From Octopus sinensis (taxonomy: Eukaryota): a stretch of 64,000 nt of DNA. Positions 6,166-62,939 of this stretch are shown piece after piece. Location: NCBI RefSeq assembly GCF_006345805.1, contig NC_043006.1, positions 32,922,001 to 32,986,000 on the forward strand, read 5' to 3'. A program made the position numbers and the translations under genes. Within the stretch, counting starts at the first letter, position 1. Each line of letters opens with the position of its first letter. The notes below the pieces were generated by a model that saw only the letters and a list, made by a program, of their open reading frames with translations, was not told where the DNA came from and did no database searches.

Positions 6166-7744
<1,579 letters not shown>

Positions 7745-7745
<1 letters not shown>

Positions 7746-8044
7746 CAACTTATAAACAAGGGCTAAAGAAAATTATTTCAATGACATTATGCTGATAACA
7801 GACTTTTAAATCGTCAACTTCCACATATTATTTACTCGCTACAGAAAATACGTAGAGCTGAAATTGATTCAATATAGAAATAACGAACTTTAAAAAAAAA
7901 AAATCATGTTGGCTAGCTTTCCTCGATTCAGCTCTACGTATTTTCTGTAGCGAATAAATAATATGTGAAAATTGACGCTTTAAAAGTCTGTTATTAGCAT
8001 ATTGGCACTGAAATAATTTTCTTTAGCCCTTGCTTATAAGTTGT
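7745..8044. repeat. Foldback with inverted arms of about 118 bp, next to (TA)n
   Basis: ACAACTTATAAACAAGGGCTAAAGAAAATTATTTCA...GCTACAGAAAATACGTAGAGCTGAA (7745-7862) and its reverse complement (7927-8044). Confidence 0.9.
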
Positions 8045-8135
8045 TTATAATTTTAACCGTAAAGGTATTTTAATATGCTGCCACATTTTTTGATGAAGAT
8101 TTTTTTTTCTGTAAAAATAACTTCATCCTATATAA

Positions 8136-8202
<67 letters not shown>

Positions 8203-8243
8203 TCATAAAAATGATATATATATATATAATATATATATATATA

Positions 8244-10253
8244 TAAATTCATAAAAGTCAAATTATAAATGAAACCATTAAAAAATCACCAAAGACATAC
8301 ATACACACACCTAATCCGGGGGACCTAAAACTACGACCCATTGTAGCTGGCCCAACCTGTGAAACACACAGACTAAGTCTACTTATGGACATCCTCTTGA
8401 AACCCTTCCTTAAACATATCGATAGCCATATCAGAGATGACTTAGATATGTTAAACCACCTCCCAAAAAAAACCAAGGAAGAAACAATCCTGGTTTCATT
8501 TGATGTAGTCAACTTGTATACCAGTATTCCTCATAATTATGGACTGGAGGCAATACAATTCTGGTTAGACCAATTTCCGGAAGAAATACCAAAAAGGATC
8601 AGTAAGGAATTCATTACTAAATCAATTGAATTCATCCTACACAATAACCACTTCATGTTTGACAATACATTTTACCGTCAAAAATCCGGAATTGCTATGG
8701 GTACAAGGGCAGCACCAGTCATTGCGAACTTAACAATGGGATACATGGAAATAATCATTTACCAGGAATCTCTATCAATCTTTGGAAACTCCCTCTCTCA
8801 ATACATAAAAGAGAATTGGAAACGATTCCTAGACGATTGTTTCATTCTCTGGAATGAAAACATAGATAAACTCCTAAAATTTAAAAACCTATTGAACAGC
8901 ATAAACCCAAATATACAGTTCACAATGGAATACAACCAAAAGGAGCTCCCGTTCTTGGATATACTAATTAAAAAATTAACCTTAAAATAGAAACAGACAT
9001 TTTTTACAAAGCCACAGACGCCAAACAATACCTTCTTTTTAATTCATGCCACCCAAGACACACTAAAACAAACATCCCCTTCAACCTTGCAAGAAGGATA
9101 TGCACAATAGTGTCAGAACAAAATACCAGGAACTTTAGACTGCAAGTACTCAAAAACACCCTAATTGACAGACATTACCCAGCTCAACTCATAGAGGATG
9201 GGATCAGACGTGCAACAGAAATCAACAAAGAAACTTTAAGAAAAGTTCAACACAACAACACACCTTCCCCGAAAATACTACCTTACATATCTACATACAA
9301 CCCCAGAAACAAAGAAGCCTTCACCATCATCACCCAGAATTTACCAATACTTCATAAAAACCCAAAATTAAAGGAAATTCTAAACATACACCAAATCATT
9401 AAAAGCTACAAACAGCCTAAATCACTTAAAAAGATTCTCACAAAGGCAAAATTGTCTTCTAAAATTACGGATGCAAAAGTAAAAAAATGTGGTAGATCGA
9501 ACTGTGCAACATGTCCTAACCTATTGGAAGGATCAGAATTCTTCTTTAAAGAGGGACAGAAATTTAAGATCAAATCTAACTTTACTTGTGCCTCTGAAAA
9601 CATAATTTATGTTATTAAATGCTCGGGCTGCCACCAAGACTACGTGGGTTCCACGGGACTATCACTCAGGCGCAGATGCACACTGCATCGACAACAGATT
9701 GCATTCCCAGAATATAGAATGATACCTTTTAGTGAGCACATTGAGAAATGCGCAAAGCAACTACTGCCACAATTTTTAATCTTCCCATTTTACCAATGTG
9801 CTTTCGGATCATCAACACAAATGAGACTGAACAAGGAAACATTCTTCATTGAAAAGTACAAACCCAGACTCAACCATCCGAACATACTGACACAGAGAAA
9901 TTAACAAGGAAAAAGGAAAAAATTTTTAAGCGATTATCTCCCCTACACCGGAAAAAATCACTCACTACCTCCCCTTATTTAGAAATCTCCTGGAAATAAA
10001 AACAACGATAATTCCATGCAATATAAACATAACGTCACAAGAAATTTGAAAAGCTACACGCGAAACCGGTAATTTCTTTAAAAATATTTAAAATTATGTT
10101 ATTTTAAGGAAAGGAAAAAAATTTTTCCAATATTCTCCAGACATTTTGACACAAATATATATATTTTTTAACATTTAAGCCTTCTGTCGTTTTTTCACAC
10201 TTTACTATTTTCTTATATATTCACCCACATGCTTTACCAAACAAACTTTCCTA

Positions 10254-10255
<2 letters not shown>
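8244..10255 (+). mobile_element. Penelope-like retroelement (Neptune-type), 5'-truncated: RT, Zn-finger linker, GIY-YIG endonuclease and 3' tail; one frameshift near 8975
   Basis: KIHK...LRPIVAG, VSFDVVNLYTSIP, QKSGIAMGT, WKRFLDDCF, LPFLDI, CGRSNCATC, IIYVIKCSGCHQDYVGST; stop at 9904; (TA)n on both sides. Confidence 0.95.
10039..10078 (+). ncRNA. Minimal type I hammerhead ribozyme with U3-A8 core in the PLE tail
   Basis: AAGAAAT-TTGAAAA-GC(TACAC)GC-GAAA-CCGG-TA-ATTTCTT: perfect 7-bp stem I, 2-bp stem II, palindromic stem III (ACCGGT), GUA triplet. Confidence 0.8.
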
Positions 10256-10286
<31 letters not shown>

Positions 10287-16243: not shown

Positions 16244-17545
16244 TATATAAGATAACTTACGTCCAGAAGCATACACTATACACACGCACACTATTTGGTC
16301 TCATACACAAACACACACATACGCATGTGCATACACCATCTGAACAAGCACACATCAACTGCTACACACAAGCACACGCGCGCGCAGGTTAGCCAAAGTT
16401 CTATACAGAAAGAAGAAATAGGATCCCGAATTCAGCAAGTGTGATTGCCTGTTAGGTTTGATGAAAAACAAACGTGGACACAATGTGCGCCAAAATTGAG
16501 AGAAAAGAATGAAAATAGAGAGCAAGTAAAAGAGGACAAGATCTAGACAGGGTCATTAGGTGGAGGAGAGGGGAGGTTGTGTGTGTATCCATCCATCTTC
16601 TCCTACTATTCTTTGGGAAATCCTGGGGGACATAGCCTTCAGTCATCTCCTCTGTAATGTCTTACGAAGAACAAACGTCATTAGACTTTCCAGTTGAATT
16701 CCCAATTCTGACAAAGTGAGATTATGGACGTTATTCATTCATCTTGTTCTTGGTCCACCCTTAGGTTTTCTATCAGTTGCTACAGCTTGCAGAATAAACC
16801 TACCTGCAGAAACTCTAACAACAAATATATCGACATACATCTGCGAATGATTTCAAATTGAGTTCGATTGTACAAGTCTTACCAGTTAAACACACAGAAC
16901 AAGATATTTTGTGGACACCCTGTTAAAGCACCTCTTCAAACACATAAAGAAATTTATTCACGATAAAGCCAGTAACTTACGAAAGGCAGAGTACGAACAT
17001 GCAGTTATCCAACAGCATGGTTTCAGAATACGGTTGAGCAAGTTGTGCCATATCCCTCTATTTCACTGAAGGTTCAGAGTTCAAGTTTAAGAATGGACAA
17101 ATCTTTAAGTTAACGGATAGTTTTACACTTCTCATAGTTTTCTCAATAACCTGATTTGGAAGTTAGGAAAACTACACCAGAAAAACAGAACAAACCAGTT
17201 AAAGCATTTCCATTTTATATATGCTCAGATTCAACCACAGAAATGTAAGTCACGTTTAACCATTTAATCTAATAACCACTGTGAATAATATACGTAGATA
17301 TGAAGAACAATGAGAAGCGTTGCAAAAAAAAAAAGACATTTCTGTCTTTAAAAGCACTGTAAAAGCAAAATATTCATTTTCCTTGAACCAAGAGCGAGAA
17401 ACGATAGCTATTCTATACAAACATATTTGTATATCTAAAAGGAATGTAATAATGATTCTTTATCATCTAATACATTAAGCAAAATTTGAGTAATTATTGC
17501 AAATGAGTTATGCCTTGTATGTATTTACGCATTATGTATGTATGA

Positions 17546-17626
<81 letters not shown>

Positions 17627-17627
<1 letters not shown>

Positions 17628-17912
17628 TGCTCCTGTCGTTTTTAGCCCCAGAAAGACATCTCCTTCAGCTGGCTAACGACACACTGTATTCGATTAGTAT
17701 TTGCGAGGGGAGGTCATCGCTTCCATCTCTAGCCTTACGTGATACACACAGACCCGGGTTTCTGGATAGTTACCCGTCTTCAGTGTGTGATAATCACCAG
17801 CTAGTGATGAAAACTCATTCCACTCGCAAAATACTACATGCTTTCTCACCGTCTCGAAAAAGGAGAAATAAGCTATATTAAATCTCTGAGCGAGAGGCAA
17901 ACAGTAACAGTA
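17627..17912 (-). mobile_element. Hammerhead-containing non-coding repeat unit (candidate retrozyme), between (TA)n tracts
   Basis: Shares blocks with the 39.6-40.4 kb repeat (CCCCAG..A.ACATCT...CAGCTGGCTA; GATAATC...TAG..ATGA; AAATCTCTGAGCGAGA). Internal inverted repeat 17697-17733 / 17800-17836 flanks the ribozyme. Confidence 0.7.
17745..17789 (-). ncRNA. Type I hammerhead ribozyme with canonical core
   Basis: Minus strand: CACACA-CTGAAGA-C-GGGT(AACT)ATCC-A-GAAA-CCCGGG-TC-TGTGTG. 6-bp stem I, CUGANGA, 4-bp stem II closed by a C.A mismatch, palindromic stem III, GUC triplet. Confidence 0.85.
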
Positions 17913-17920
17913 CGGAATCG

Positions 17921-17955
<35 letters not shown>

Positions 17956-38705: not shown

Positions 38706-39821
38706 AGTAACAAACGATAAAAGACAAACTATAAATACGTTTCAACAAATCAAGAGAAAGCAAATTCTATTCCTACATTTCTTATTATTCTTCCCAATTT
38801 CAAACATGATCGTTTCACCCATTTGTGTCTGGTTCATTAACCTATATAATTCATCACAACTCTTTCAGCAAATTTCTCATGTAATTTACAGTGAGTTCAT
38901 TTTGAAAGGACGTTGTACATATTTCAACACAAAATGACACGTTTATCCTTTGTTATCCAACAACGATTTCAATGGATTCAGGTTTGTCATGACATCTGCC
39001 AACTCCACGCTACATCTTGCACATCCAGCAGCGTAAGAATCACAGACAAATTTCCTTTGCGTTAGTTTATATGAAGATACGAATCTCTTCCCATATAAAT
39101 TCTGTATTATGGATCTATTGTAAAAACATCATGCATGTTTGTTCATACTTTTCGTGTGTTTTCACGTGATTAGGTTGTATTTAACATAAGTATAAGTTCC
39201 ATATCAAATTCGATCTGCCAATTAACAGAGATTTGAGAATATGAAAGATTACAAATGGATGCGACATCATTTCCATAAACTCTACGTGATATGACAAATT
39301 GTTTGTATGCAATTATTTCTCGCCTCGGTGAAATATATGCTTGAGTGTTGAAACATAATTATAGATTTATATCTACAGCAACCACACGTTCATTTTGAAT
39401 TTACTAAAAACGTGCAAACGAACGTATTCTTTCACAGGTTCCTTCTATCCCTCGCCTCTATATGGAGAAGATGGAAAAAGGAAACTGCCACAGTGTCATG
39501 CTTCTTTCACATCCAACTCAATTTCTATTACTTCTTTAATATTGCAGGATTTCTTATCTGTTCAGAAATAATTTTTATCATTTAATTGGAGAAATGTTAA
39601 AAAAAGAAGAAAGCAATTAGTTTTAAATCTCTGAGCGAGAAGTAAGTAGAAACAAGTAGTAAAATCTATTTGCCAACGTAAATTGTTAGTCCTGATTGAG
39701 ACGATGTTACTACCTTTTTTTTTCTCCAGGAAAACGTATTTTCCAGCTGGCTATCGGCGCGCAGCTGTGTCCTTATGCCTCGAACAAGGGAGCTAATGTC
39801 CCCAATGTGATTTTAACAGTA

Positions 39822-39865
39822 CCTGAGGACCATGGTTCTGAGTTATTTCTTTTCATCGGCATATG
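39822..39865 (-). ncRNA. Degenerate hammerhead-like motif, paralogue of 40165-40210
   Basis: Minus strand CATATG-CCGATGA-AAAGAAATAACTCA-GAA-CCATGG-TC-CTCAGG; one A of GAAA lost and stem I mismatched. Confidence 0.45.
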
Positions 39866-40164
39866 ATAATCGTTGGTTAGAAATGACAGCGCTAGCCTTG
39901 TTCGAGGTATAAGGACGCAGTAGTGCGTTGGTAGCCAGCTGGTAAAGATGTTTTCATGGGGTTAAAAAAAGGTAGTAACATCGTCCTAATCAGGACTGCC
40001 AATTTACGTTGGCAAATATATTTTACTCTGAGTACTGTTATTACTTATTTCTCGCTCAGAGATTTAAAACTAATTGTTTCCTTTACCAGATCAGTGACTG
40101 TGTGTCACTTTAAAGTGTATACCTCGAACAAGGTCTAGCGTTGCCATCTCTAGCCAACGGTTAT

Positions 40165-40210
40165 CCTGTGCCGATGAAGATTAAATAACTCAGAAACCAT
40201 GGTCCGCAGG
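40165..40210 (+). ncRNA. Type I hammerhead-like motif (CCGAUGA core)
   Basis: CCTGTG-CCGATGA-AGATTAAATAACTCA-GAAA-CCATGG-TC-CGCAGG: 6-bp stem I, palindromic stem III, GUC; U4C change and weak stem II. Confidence 0.65.
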
Positions 40211-40501
40211 TCCGCAGGTACCGTTTAAGGCTGAGTGGAGACATTAGCTAGCTTGTTCGAGGTATAAGGACGCAGTTGTGCGTCGGTAGCCGACTAGAAA
40301 AGATATTTTCCTGGGGCTGAAAAAAGGTAGAAACAGTAACATCAACTTACTCAGGAATGCCGATTTACGTTGGCAAATACATTTTACAGTGTTCAAGAAG
40401 ATTGCGTTAAAATACGTTTAGAGCTGCAGAGATTATTAGATTATGTGGTTTTGCATAATACTTTCCGCGATATATATCTAATGCATACATACATACATAC
40501 A

Positions 40502-46281: not shown

Positions 46282-46700
46282 AGGGAGAGAGAATGAAGGA
46301 TTTCCTTAGAAGTTAATGGCGACAAAAAAAGAACATTTTTGCAAAGCAGAATGGCACAAAACATTCGGAAAGAGGTTTTCCTGTGGTGTGCAAACGCTTT
46401 CGTTGATCCAGAATAGTAGAAACGGTGAGATGAATAAATGCTTACACGCACATTTGTATGTATGTGTGTATTTATGTACACGTGTGTGTATGTGTGAGCA
46501 TACATATACATACACAACCATGTGTGCACTTATACATATATATTTATATCGTCGCTATTGTTTTAAACTGTTGAAGGTCCAAATATGTGCAAATGCGTTT
46601 TCTTTTTTTTCAATATTTATTTTTGCGTACAAAACTATCGTACCTCCTGCTGCTTCAGATGCCAAGATATCAAAAAAGTAGGTTGGGGTTAGGGTTAGGG

Positions 46701-47190
46701 TTTCCACAGTTTGGCCGTCCACATATTTTAATCGTTGTCTTTGTAGTTGTTGTGTAAAGCTTTGCATTTGTTTGATGTATTTTTAGCTATTTAGGTTGCT
46801 TTTTGCATTTGGTGAACTTTGAGAATGTTATTCATTTTTGGATCTCTAGAGAGCATAGGTAGATTTTGTACAATAGTGTTGTATGCCTCATTGTTTCTCG
46901 GGTTGTGAATTGATATATACAGTAGTGTTTTGAGATGAGGTGTGACGTTACGGTTTGTTACCCTTAGTGTTTTAATGTCTTATTTCTAGAACGTTTAATT
47001 CCATCGTCTATAAGTGAGGGTGGATATTATCTTTCAGCTAGTGTTGTTCTGAGGTGTTGAAGACGAATGTCCCAAGTATTTCTATCAGACAATATTGTAC
47101 AAATCCTTTTTCCTAAATTAAAGGGGACATTTATTTTGACGTGTTTCGGGTGGCATGTGCTAAACAGGAGGTATTGCTAGGAGTCTTGGT
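46701..47190 (-). mobile_element. Penelope-like (Neptune-type) fragment: RT thumb to Zn-finger
   Basis: Minus strand QYLLFSTCHPKHVKINVPFNLGKRICTI...HNPRNNEAYNTIVQNLP...KICGRPNCGT, homologous to the 9.0-9.5 kb region. Confidence 0.85.
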
Positions 47191-49596: not shown

Positions 49597-49661
<65 letters not shown>

Positions 49662-49664
<3 letters not shown>

Positions 49665-50119
49665 TGGTCGATTAGCCTTGATCGTTCTGTCAGTGTTGAC
49701 TGGAAAATCCCAGAGGATGGTGACATTTTTACCTTCAACAACTGGCTGAGGATGATGTTCATACCAGTTAGCAGGAGTGCCGAATTTGTAGTGTTTACAT
49801 ATCTTCCAATGTATATAGTGTCCTACCCTATCGTGGCGATTTTTGTATTCGTTTGGTGTCAGCACAGGACATCCCGAAACGAGATGGTCTATTGTTTCGT
49901 CAAATGTGTCGCAGAATCTGCATTTAGGGTCAGTACCGTTTCGGAGAACACTAGCCTGGTAATTTCTGGTAAACAAGCTTTGATCTTGTGCTGCGAGTAT
50001 GAAGCCTTCAGTCTCTGCTTTCAATCCTGAACTCTTCAGACACTGATGGGTTGTTGCTTGGTCTACATCAGCATTTTGGCTTCGGAGAATATATTATCCA
50101 TGCAGGGGCTTCTGGCTCC
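49662..50119 (-). mobile_element. R4/Dong-like non-LTR retrotransposon fragment (CCHC knuckle + start of the restriction-like endonuclease)
   Basis: LKAETEGFILAAQDQ...CRFC...ETIDHLVSGC...RHD...LWDF...NRPDI; upstream end abuts (TAA)n, downstream end runs into (TA)n. Confidence 0.88.
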
Positions 50120-59776: not shown

Positions 59777-59815
<39 letters not shown>

Positions 59816-59820
<5 letters not shown>

Positions 59821-62800
59821 CCAAGACCCTTGACAATGAAATGCAGATTGAAATCTCAAAACACTGTGAAGGAGCACTCCTTGATGAAACCACCAAACTC
59901 TGGAGAAAAACTGCGAGGATGAAGAACTAACATCCCTCCAGCGAATGGAAAAAAACAGCTGGTTCACCAATTATGAAACAGAGTTCACAAAGGAACACCT
60001 TTCAAGCAACCCATATTTTAAAATATCTACTTCAAATCACACCCCTCGCCAAAAACAAAGAAAACCAACCACAAAACACCGAACACGCACCACCCCTAAC
60101 ATCAACAACAACAACAACAGAACTTACAGACAGCACTACAATCCCATCAAAAGAACCGAGACACCCATCATCACAAGACAAAACTTTACCAGACAACGTA
60201 GACCCCAACCCACACAAGAACCGTTCCAGATTCGGAGATCCTACCCTTCACTTAGAAACCCACCTCTGAACTATGATTGTAGATTCCAACCCAAACCGCT
60301 CCTAACTCAGAGTTCTCCCCCAACATATAGGAATTCACTTCTAAACCATGAATATAGTTTCCAACCCACTCTAAGGAACCAACATTACACCCAGGACAAA
60401 CAACCCAGAACCTGGAATAACCAAAACTCTTCCAGGAGGCCACACCAACAACCCAGACCCTGGAACAACCAAAACCTCTTCAACAGACAACATATCAACG
60501 GGGGACAGAATAACAACAACCAAAACCTCTTCAACAGACAACATATCAACGGGGGACAGAATCACATACAGCAAAATACCACAAACAGAAGAACCCCAGG
60601 ATTCCTTTTTTAGGCAAGGGCATCAGTTTCCACGACAACCCAGATGGTAGATACCAATCCCGAAAAACCAAAATAGTGAATCTTTCTAACCTAAACCTGT
60701 CGACACCACAAATAAAAATCCTTTCAAGAGGACTAAAATTCACCCCAACTCCGCAATATACCCTACCTGAGGGAAATACAGGATGACATCTCACACTTTT
60801 GCAGAAAATTACGCCTCACAGAGGAATTTTTTGACAGGAAAATTAATAATAACAAACATTGGTCTGTAACAAAAGCAACTATAATCCCATAAAAGGCAAA
60901 AACAAAACCTTAGACAAATTTTGCGATTACATCTCCAACTTCCCTATGGTGAACTCCCACAACCTAAACTCAAACCCAACACCAGTAAAAGAGAATGGGA
61001 AATCATCCATACGCTACGAGACATCATGACGTCACAATAAAGGAAGCTGATAAGGGTAGTACGGTCGTTGTTATGAATACTGAGCAATATAAAAACTCTG
61101 TATCTCTCCTTTTAGAGGATACCACATACTACTAACGATAGAAAGAGTAGTCGACTACCAGCAATCCAAAACAATGACCAAACTGAAGGCACTCATTTAC
61201 CAACACACCGAATGACTTGACAGCAAAGGAATGCGACTACATTACTAAATTTAATTGCAAAAACCAGCACACTCTATGGGCTTCCAAAAATACACAAGAG
61301 TCAAATTATCACAGAAGCTTGCAAAAAGTCCACTTCACCTGCATCAATATACCACATCCCACTGATCTCAACTGAGACCAATAGTGGCAGGCCCAAGTTG
61401 TGAAACACACAGACTTAGCAACTTTATAGATATCATCTTAAAGCCAATACTGAAACACATTCCAAGTATTGTAAGAGATGACCTGGACCTATTAAATCAT
61501 CTCCCCAAACATACCGAAAAAGACACCTTAATCGTTTCTTTTCTTTTGATGTTATTAATCTTTACACCACAATCCACATGAATATGGACTGAAGCCATTA
61601 AATTCTGGCTGGATAAATATCCCAATGAGATCCGGAAAGAATTAAAAAAGAATTCATAATTGAGGGCCTCAAATTTATTCTGCAAAACAACTTCATGTAT
61701 TTCCACAACAACACTTACAGACAGGTCTCAGGAACTGCAATGGGTACGAAAGTTGCACCTACCTATGCAAACATGGTGATGGCCTACCTGGAATCACATA
61801 TCTATGAAAATCCAAATATAGTACGGCCAGTCTTTCCACAAATACCTGTTGGAGAACTGGAAACGCTACTTAGATGATTGCCTCATCCTATAGTCCCACA
61901 CACTCGACCAACTTATAGACTTCAAAAACCTTATCAACAGTGTAAATAACAACATTCAATTCACAATGGAATATAGTCAGGACCAACTCCCTTTTCTTGA
62001 CATCCTAATCATTAAAAAAGGCGGCAACATTGAAACTGACATCCATTACAAACCCACTGACTCTAAACAATACCTTCTATTCACCTCCAATCACCCAAAA
62101 CACACAAAGACAAATATCCCCTTCAACCTAGCGAGAAGAATCTGCACTATGTCTCAATGACACAACACGAAATAGAAGACTCCGGGAACTAAGGGCAATT
62201 CTTCTCGAAAGACATTACCCGGCATCACTAGTAGACAACGGAATAGAACGGGCCAAATCAATCAACATTCAAGACCTACGAAAACCCAAACACATCCACA
62301 GTACAGTAAATAGCCTCCCCTATCTCTCAACACACAACCCAAGGAATGCAGAAGCTTACACTATTATATAAACATTCCACAACTAAATCAAGACCCACGC
62401 CTGAAAAAAAATACTGGCAGCTCATAAAAATAATAAAGTAAGAGACAACCTAAATCCCTAAAAAACTCCTCACCAACGCAAATTACAACAACACAAACCA
62501 CCGCCCACCATCAAAAAATGTGGTCGCCCCAACTGCAGACCTGCATCCACCTCATTGAGGGATCGTCGTACAAGTTCCACTCGGGACACACATTCATCAT
62601 AAAAAATAATTTCACGTGCGCATCAAAACATTTACTCTACGTCATAAGGTGTGAAGGATGCCACGAAGACTACATAGGGCAAACGAGCCTTACCCTCAGA
62701 GAAAGAATGACAGTTCACCGACAACAACTGAGGGACCCCTCCACAAGACAGATACCATTAAGTGGACACTTAGACCTTTGTGCACACAATAAGTCCCCCA

Positions 62801-62900
62801 ATTCTTAGTCTTCCCACTATACCAATGCTCGACAACACCACAGACCAAACACGAATAAATAAGGAAAGTAATCTTATTCAAAAATACAGACCACACTAAA
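59816..62900 (+). mobile_element. Longer Penelope-like (Neptune-type) element, multiply frameshifted
   Basis: LSRGLKFTPTP, TIKEADKG, YGLPKIHK, RPIVAGPSCETHRLS, QVSGTAMGT, RYLDD, LPFLDI, LLYVIRCEGCHEDYIGQT (GIY-YIG); starts at (TA)n; 51-bp tandem repeat at 60464-60562. Confidence 0.93.
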
Positions 62901-62939
62901 ACATACTAACATACTCTAACATACCCCTGGAAACACATC

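What the first reader, a model, noticed from the sequence alone, without database searches (positions are those of the whole stretch)
10039..10078. Non-canonical U3-A8 hammerhead (UUGAAAA core) in the tail of a near-intact Penelope-like element
Seen: about 135 nt after the GIY-YIG stop there is a perfect 7-bp stem I, TTGAAAA, a 2-bp stem II, GAAA, palindromic ACCGGT and GUA. Known: C3 and G8 form a tertiary Watson-Crick pair, U3-A8 is the compensated variant, and PLE pLTRs carry minimal type I hammerheads. Inference: this PLE lineage fixed the rare core, which a CUGANGA motif search would miss.
Basis: partly seen in the sequence, partly recalled or inferred. Interest (0 to 1): 0.75.

Follow-up and report, generated by a model that had tools for sequence, protein, structure and literature searches.

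The report
Variant hammerhead ribozyme in Penelope retroelement
A jumping gene carries a small self-cutting RNA with a swapped base pair in its core; this swap is already known from similar elements, so the find is real but mostly ordinary, though a distant relative shares the swap.

Summary
The motif is real and exactly as described. It is a type I hammerhead with a U3-A8 core, 135 nt after the stop of an RT + GIY-YIG Penelope-like element (PLE) of Neptune type. No shuffle matched it (0 of 2180). The core variant is not new: Cervera & de la Peña 2014 report U3-A8 hammerheads in Schistosoma Cercyon PLEs (about 1,300 hits, one example with the same UUGAAAA), and Perreault 2011 reports natural U3-A8 and 2-bp stems II. 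The element is not near-intact: it is 5'-truncated, frameshifted and has one hammerhead. The motif most likely cleaves only as a dimer through ACCGGU, slowly or with protein help. A predicted U3-A17 pair may trap it. New here: a PLE only 37% identical in protein (L002) has a U3-A8 hammerhead at the same position with a compensated palindrome, ACAUGU. The core may therefore run through a deep Neptune-type lineage, or may have arisen twice in AT-rich hosts. Fixation among family copies could not be tested. New member of a known kind; interest 0.3.

The parts
10039..10078 (+). Type I hammerhead, U3-A8 core: stem I 7 bp, stem II 2 bp, palindromic helix III ACCGGU, GUA triplet
10046..10052 (+). Core positions 3-9, UUGAAAA (U3, A8)
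   Evidence: same heptamer in S. mansoni(4) Cercyon hammerhead
10065..10070 (+). Self-complementary ACCGGU; predicted intermolecular helix III of a double hammerhead
   Evidence: pairing probability 0.93 in the modelled dimer
10071..10072 (+). Predicted cleavage site, 3' of A17
   Evidence: NUH rule (PMC3884650 passages) applied to the sequence; not tested
10026..10100 (+). Possible distal extension of stem I (AACAUAA/UUAUGUU, 7 bp) beyond an internal loop
   Evidence: pair probabilities 0.49-0.88; L002 has an analogous 6-bp distal helix of different sequence; inference
8247..8990 (+). PLE ORF, 5'-truncated RT part (RVT_1, FLDD motif)
   Evidence: (E 2.8e-8)
8972..9904 (+). PLE ORF after the frameshift: RT thumb, CX4CX2C linker, GIY-YIG endonuclease with CCHH residues
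   Evidence: GIY-YIG E 0.012, below the curated cut-off; C173 C178 C181 C206 Y213 C217 C220 Y224 R235 H239 invariant in 25 of 25; H256 E289 N301 in at least 90%
9905..10257 (+). 3' non-coding tail (pLTR equivalent) holding the hammerhead; ends at a (TA)n tract; right boundary approximate
   Evidence: GC 0.29
8131..8246 (.). (TA)n tract at the 5' junction, with a short duplicate of the junction sequence at about 8200-8211
10258..10285 (.). (TA)n tract at the 3' junction

Best explanation
This is the family-encoded hammerhead in the 3' pLTR of a young, 5'-truncated, (TA)n-inserted Neptune-type PLE, probably from an octopus. It carries the known compensated U3-A8 core pair instead of C3-G8. SHOWN: motif, position, PLE context, and a second U3-A8 hammerhead in a distant relative. 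INFERRED: a monomer cannot close helix III, so two copies (tandem pLTRs of a full element, or two transcripts) pair through ACCGGU and swap stem I strands to form a double hammerhead. U3 then pairs with A8 in the active state and the RNA is cut after A17 (10071/10072), releasing unit-length element RNA from read-through transcripts. Cleavage is probably slow and helped by the element's own protein. This single truncated copy has no partner in cis.
For: Exact motif and chance level. RT and GIY-YIG upstream. The monomer hammerhead fold is +3.1 kcal/mol, while the lowest-energy dimer of the 40-mer has double-hammerhead topology (-15.5 vs -8.0 for two monomers; helix III 0.93, stem II 0.82, intermolecular stem I 0.91). 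L002 (37% protein identity) has TTGATAA, a 4-bp stem II, GAAA, palindrome ACATGT and U17, 175 nt after its stop; 2 of 100,000 tail shuffles match it as well. Literature: PLE hammerheads work as dimers with low activity, and U3-A8 occurs in Cercyon PLEs (PMC4209133). U3-A8 is natural and, per the work cited there, active in vitro, and 2-bp stems II are common (PMC3088659). The anole PLE hammerhead cleaves only with its protein (PMC11167929). P0001 is 307 of 310 identical and reads through the frameshift, so the family or allele is recent, and two compensating changes after insertion are unlikely.
Against: There are no cleavage data. U3 can pair with A17: the paired dimer is 1.4 kcal/mol lower and populated 0.71, like the presumed C3-G17 trap that slowed natural hammerheads about 8- to 100-fold (PMC3884650). 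The other three U3-A8 examples I saw have U17, U17 and G17. Stem II (2 bp) is shorter than in any of the 56 examples of Fig. S3 of PMC4209133. In a 111-nt context the modelled dimer loses stem I to downstream pairing. The dimer energy gain is ordinary (424 of 1000 shuffles reach it). In the anole element cleavage was not needed for insertion in vitro and no reads ended at the cut site. No second copy of this family's tail was found.
Confidence: 0.68

Rival explanations
1. The motif is hammerhead-derived but effectively non-cleaving in this copy or family: a relic, or an RNA dimerisation or protein-binding signal. The U3-A17 pair and 2-bp stem II hold it inactive.
For: U3-A17 populated 0.71 in the dimer model, and stem I displaced in longer context. 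No folding signal. Cleavage dispensable in vitro for another PLE.
Against: All core positions, the palindrome and 7 of 7 stem I pairs are intact. G17-trapped natural hammerheads still cleave. An A-U trap is weaker than G-C (general knowledge).
Confidence: 0.25
2. On origin: U3-A8 arose independently in this family, in L002's family and in Cercyon, favoured by AT-rich tails, possibly through a U3-G8 wobble intermediate. It is not a lineage-wide trait.
For: Homologous S. mansoni and S. japonicum Cercyon hammerheads differ as U3-A8 versus C3-G8, and a Saccoglossus one has U3-G8, so the switch is evolutionarily easy. Tails are 29% and 26% GC. The window and L002 hammerheads share no stem sequence. 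L001/L002 sit on a long branch (1.54). The one Neptune-labelled example in Table S1/Fig. S3 (Acropora digitifera) has C3-G8.
Against: 2 of 2 relatives with a long enough tail have U3-A8, against 2 of 56 published examples. Both have a 6-nt ACNNGU helix III and no bulge after A9. The same window holds C3-G8 hammerheads of another family, so host composition alone does not force the change.
Confidence: 0.55
3. A chance match in AT-rich sequence.
For: The descriptor was written after seeing the motif. z-score -0.37. No Rfam hammerhead hit.
Against: 0 of 2180 window shuffles and 0 of 100,000 tail shuffles reach it. It sits where PLE hammerheads are expected, and recurs in L002.
Confidence: 0.02

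Closest known systems
U3-A8 min-HHRs of Schistosoma mansoni Cercyon PLEs (Cervera & de la Peña 2014, PMC4209133; main text parts 1-2 of 4 and supplement parts 1-2 of 3 read)
   Same: U3-A8 core, same UUGAAAA heptamer in S. mansoni(4); type I; located in PLE terminal repeats; dimer architecture.
   Different: Here stem II is 2 bp (4-6 bp there), there is no bulge after A9, helix III has a 4-nt palindromic insert (2 nt there), stem I is 7 bp (3-4 there), position 17 is A (U or G there), and the element is Neptune-type with a CX4CX2C linker.
PLE hammerhead variants with a small palindromic helix III (Drosophila, Adineta, Marsupenaeus, Oikopleura in PMC4209133 Fig. S3; Chlamys-2_cBra ACCGGT in PMC8557442 File S2)
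   Same: 6-nt palindromic helix III; ACCGGT itself is listed; 3' pLTR position.
   Different: Those have C3-G8 and longer stems II.
Natural U3-A8 and weak-stem-II hammerheads (Perreault et al. 2011, PMC3088659; section 8 and passages read)
   Same: U3-A8 covariation seen in nature; stem II often 2 bp.
   Different: The section read does not tie them to PLEs; a pseudoknot stabilises many there, and none was evident here by inspection.
Neptune-type PLEs (Craig et al. 2021, PMC8557442; passages and supplement parts 1, 2, 54 of 59 read)
   Same: RT followed by C-terminal GIY-YIG with CCHH and CX2-5CxxC linker; spacing resembles Neptune1_Nv by eye; microsatellite insertion.
   Different: Clade not tested against reference sequences; the paper recovers Neptune as paraphyletic; no U3-A8 core among its File S2 rows (which cover Chlamys and Hydra only).
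Dimer-cleaving small hammerhead variants of PLEs (Lünse, Weinberg & Breaker, RNA Biol; text not held; seen only as a citation, otherwise recalled)
   Same: Diminished stem III, dimer cleavage, PLE association.
   Different: Could not check whether its alignments already contain this cephalopod U3-A8 family; they may.

Membership tests
Hammerhead ribozyme, type I | Core U4 G5 A6 N7 A9 / G12 A13 A14 A15.1 / U16.1 H17 | tested here: met
Hammerhead ribozyme, type I | Watson-Crick-compatible 3-8 pair | tested here: met
   U3-A8; natural variant
Hammerhead ribozyme, type I | Stems I, II, III around the core, ends in stem I | tested here: met
   7 bp, 2 bp (G10.1-C11.1), helix III only as an intermolecular palindrome
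Hammerhead ribozyme, type I | Match to an Rfam hammerhead model | tested here: inconclusive
   No hit, but the C3-G8 motif at 17783 is missed too
Hammerhead ribozyme, type I | Loop 1-loop 2 tertiary contact or pseudoknot | tested here: inconclusive
   Distal stem I with internal loop predicted; no obvious partner for loop UACAC by inspection
Hammerhead ribozyme, type I | Site-specific self-cleavage | not testable with these tools
   needs an assay
PLE dimeric (min-HHR-like) hammerhead | Palindromic positions 15-16 allowing a double hammerhead | tested here: met
   ACCGGU; lowest-energy dimer has this topology
PLE dimeric (min-HHR-like) hammerhead | Bulged nucleotide after A9 and long stem II (published consensus) | tested here: not met
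   No bulge, 2-bp stem II; it belongs with the palindromic-helix-III variants rather than strict min-HHR
PLE dimeric (min-HHR-like) hammerhead | Present in both pLTRs and conserved among family copies | not testable with these tools
   Copy is 5'-truncated; no second copy in the window or in prokaryotic genome contigs; no eukaryotic genome set available
EN+ Penelope-like element | RT followed by C-terminal GIY-YIG with CCHH | tested here: met
EN+ Penelope-like element | Single intact ORF between two pLTRs | tested here: not met
   5'-truncated, frameshifted copy; typical of a partial insertion, not evidence against family origin
Neptune clade | CX2-5CxxC linker before a C-terminal endonuclease (shared with Nematis) | tested here: met
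   C173-C178-C181; definition; spacing like Neptune rather than Nematis by eye
Neptune clade | Placement in an RT tree with reference PLEs | not tested
   The tree had no named clade references and no outgroup

The most novel reading that the evidence does not exclude
A U3-A8 core with a 6-nt ACNNGU helix III is an old, inherited trait of a whole deep Neptune-type PLE lineage (the group spanned by this element and L002, 37% identical). These families would look hammerhead-less to CUGANGA descriptors. In this family U3-A17 would act as a built-in brake that makes cleavage depend on dimerisation or on the element's protein.
Probability: 0.3. Interest if true: 0.5.

Novelty: new member of a known kind. 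Interest (0 to 1): 0.3.

Why it matters
As it stands it adds a probable cephalopod, Neptune-type example to a known core variant. If U3-A8 proves lineage-wide, hammerhead counts in invertebrate PLEs are underestimated, and claims that some PLE families lack hammerheads need re-testing with a U3-A8 descriptor. Long-term keeping of a compensated tertiary pair would also argue that catalysis, not just sequence, is under selection in PLEs. That point is open, since cleavage was dispensable in vitro for the anole element.

Tried and rejected
(1) A 'decayed U3-A8 hammerhead' near 17310 (+) looked homologous by eye. Rejected: it is coding sequence at the end of a degenerate GIY-YIG. (2) Family copies: none in the window. 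The PLE at 59815-62930 ends about 30 nt after its stop with no hammerhead, and the one at 46700-47190 stops before the endonuclease. The exact-pattern scan of prokaryotic genome contigs found 0; tblastn against phages and plasmids found nothing. (3) Of 3 related loci, 1 has the motif; L001 has only 155 nt of tail and L003 ends inside the ORF, so neither is informative. (4) Rfam: no hammerhead (one search listed 150 of 158 rows, none a hammerhead). PDB sequence search: 0 hits. (5) Folding z-score and dimer energy gain are not evidence. (6) I checked whether 'hammerhead-less' Naiads hide U3-A8 motifs by searching the PMC8557442 supplement for four GAAA+palindrome strings. Of 10 hits, none showed a U3-A8 hammerhead in the context printed. 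This is a weak test: fixed strings, and line breaks can hide hits. (7) Other core-like strings (e.g. 20889 minus, 19491 plus, 5515 minus) fail the descriptor. (8) MAFFT does not align the window and L002 hammerheads in register; the comparison is by structure. (9) Metagenome and viral contig collections stayed unchecked. Lünse 2017 and Przybilski & Hammann 2007 are not held, and the supplements of the 2026 retrozyme preprint were not seen; any of these may already cover this family.

Full report
Observation. Stem I starts 135 nt after the stop at 9904. A relaxed descriptor, written after seeing the motif, hits twice in the window. In 2180 dinucleotide shuffles of the window it gave no hit with stem I >=6 plus a palindrome >=4 nt, and 16 weaker U3-A8 hits. 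In 100,000 shuffles of the tail, 5 gave any hit. Folding energy is unremarkable (z -0.37). Rfam reports no hammerhead here or at the C3-G8 motif at 17783.

The element. Upstream are an RT ORF (8247-8990, RVT_1 E 2.8e-8) and, after a frameshift, an ORF (8972-9904) with a weak GIY-YIG match (E 0.012). In an alignment with 24 of the 78 homologues found, the linker C173-C178-C181 and the endonuclease residues Y213, C217, C220, Y224, R235 and H239 are invariant. A C-terminal endonuclease with a CX2-5CxxC linker marks Neptune or Nematis (PMC8557442 passages), and the spacing resembles Neptune1_Nv by eye; I did not test this with a reference tree. The copy sits between (TA)n tracts and begins at residue 213 of a 757-aa homologue. 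It has no 5' repeat and no second hammerhead, so 'near-intact' is too strong. An unnamed protein, P0001, is 307 of 310 identical and reads through the frameshift, so the family or allele is recent. The only homologue named as an animal gene is Octopus bimaculoides LOC106870299 (59% over the RT part), which fits an octopus host without proving it.

Related loci. No eukaryotic genome set was available. A protein scan of prokaryotic genome contigs returned 3 loci from one metagenome-assembled genome, which I infer to be eukaryotic contamination. L003 ends inside the ORF and L001 has 155 nt of tail, so neither is informative. L002 (37% identical) has, 175 nt after its stop, TAT-TTGATAA-ATCT-(8 nt)-AGAT-GAAA-CATG-T-T-ATA: a U3-A8 core, a 4-bp stem II, the palindrome ACAUGU in place of ACCGGU, U17, and a 3-bp stem I with a 6-bp distal helix. 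Any hit arose in 19 of 100,000 tail shuffles, and one as good in 2. In a midpoint-rooted tree of 40 of 81 sequences (those covering >=260 residues), the window protein and L001/L002 fall on opposite sides of the deepest split, with L001/L002 on a long branch. So 2 of 2 informative relatives have U3-A8, against 2 of 56 published examples. This is suggestive only: both tails are under 30% GC, and Schistosoma homologues switch between C3-G8 and U3-A8.

Mechanism. As a monomer the full hammerhead fold costs +3.1 kcal/mol. Two copies of the 40-mer fold best as a double hammerhead, with intermolecular ACCGGU and swapped stem I strands (-15.5 versus -8.0; pair probabilities 0.82-0.93). The energy gain itself is ordinary (424 of 1000 shuffles), and in a 111-nt context stem I is displaced. 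The model also pairs U3 with A17 (0.71; 1.4 kcal/mol below the open form). That mirrors the presumed C3-G17 trap, which slowed natural hammerheads about 8- to 100-fold without abolishing cleavage (PMC3884650 passages). The other U3-A8 examples seen have U17 or G17. I infer a slow, dimer-dependent, probably protein-assisted ribozyme that trims read-through transcripts of tandem elements. The anole PLE hammerhead cleaves only with its protein and was dispensable for insertion in vitro (PMC11167929 passages).

What is known. Cervera and de la Peña (PMC4209133; main text parts 1-2 of 4, supplement parts 1-2 of 3) describe 'U3-A8 instead of C3-G8' in Cercyon PLEs, missed by their first descriptor, with about 1,300 hits, and list UUGAAAA and UUGAUAA examples. 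Perreault et al. (PMC3088659, section 8) report natural U3-A8 and frequent 2-bp stems II. ACCGGT as helix III is listed for Chlamys-2_cBra. Searches for 'U3-A8' (1 paper), 'UUGANAA', 'U3A8' and 'U3 A8' (0 each) and octopus + Penelope + hammerhead (5 papers, 4 listed, seen as listings apart from PMC8557442) showed no report of this variant in cephalopods or Neptune-type elements. The library is incomplete, and Lünse 2017 and Przybilski & Hammann 2007 are not held. Also consulted: PMC6765202 and PMC7229834 (passages) and bioRxiv 10.64898/2026.07.22.740005 (part 1 of 5 and passages; supplements not seen).

Verdict. The feature is real, correctly read and already explained in kind: a new member of the U3-A8 PLE hammerheads. 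What may be new is the combination (U3-A8, 2-bp stem II, no bulge, 6-nt palindrome, A17) and the hint that U3-A8 runs through a deep Neptune-type lineage (probability about 0.3). Interest 0.3.

Noticed in passing
window 17625-17921 (minus), hammerhead core at 17783: A 297-bp non-coding element between (TA)n tracts with a C3-G8 type I hammerhead (6-bp stem I, helix III ACCCGGGU, GUC). It folds strongly (z -5.4 over 131 nt). It looks like a solo pLTR or retrozyme monomer of a different family; Rfam misses it.
   Followed up: partly
window about 40020-40340 (plus) and about 39810-39880 (minus): Two diverged relatives of the 17.7-kb element in an inverted arrangement, with compensated stem I and palindrome (ACCAUGGU). 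Both read CCGAUGA, i.e. U4 changed to C, so they are probably inactive.
   Followed up: partly
window 59815-62930 (plus): A longer but more degraded PLE of a related family (about 41% identical to P0082) starting at a (TA)n tract; cut about 30 nt after the stop, so no hammerhead.
   Followed up: partly
window 46680-47190 (minus): A PLE fragment that ends before the endonuclease in a few CCCTAA telomere-like repeats.
   Followed up: no
window about 16890-17370 (plus): A highly degenerate PLE linker/endonuclease remnant.
   Followed up: partly
window about 6470-7720 (plus): A mariner-like DDE transposase remnant (Transposase_1, E 2.8e-19) between microsatellites.
   Followed up: no
window 7740-8049: A MITE-like inverted repeat, 123-nt arms 92% complementary, just upstream of the PLE.
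   Followed up: no
window 49599-50093 (minus): A zf-RVT-like fragment of a non-LTR retrotransposon (E 0.0014).
   Followed up: no
L001, L002, L003 (contigs JABSON010000357.1, 348.1, 408.1): Three contigs of a Campylobacteraceae metagenome-assembled genome encode long uninterrupted PLE ORFs (701, 477, 604 aa), most likely eukaryotic contamination. P0040, labelled Omnitrophica, looks like a similar case.
   Followed up: partly
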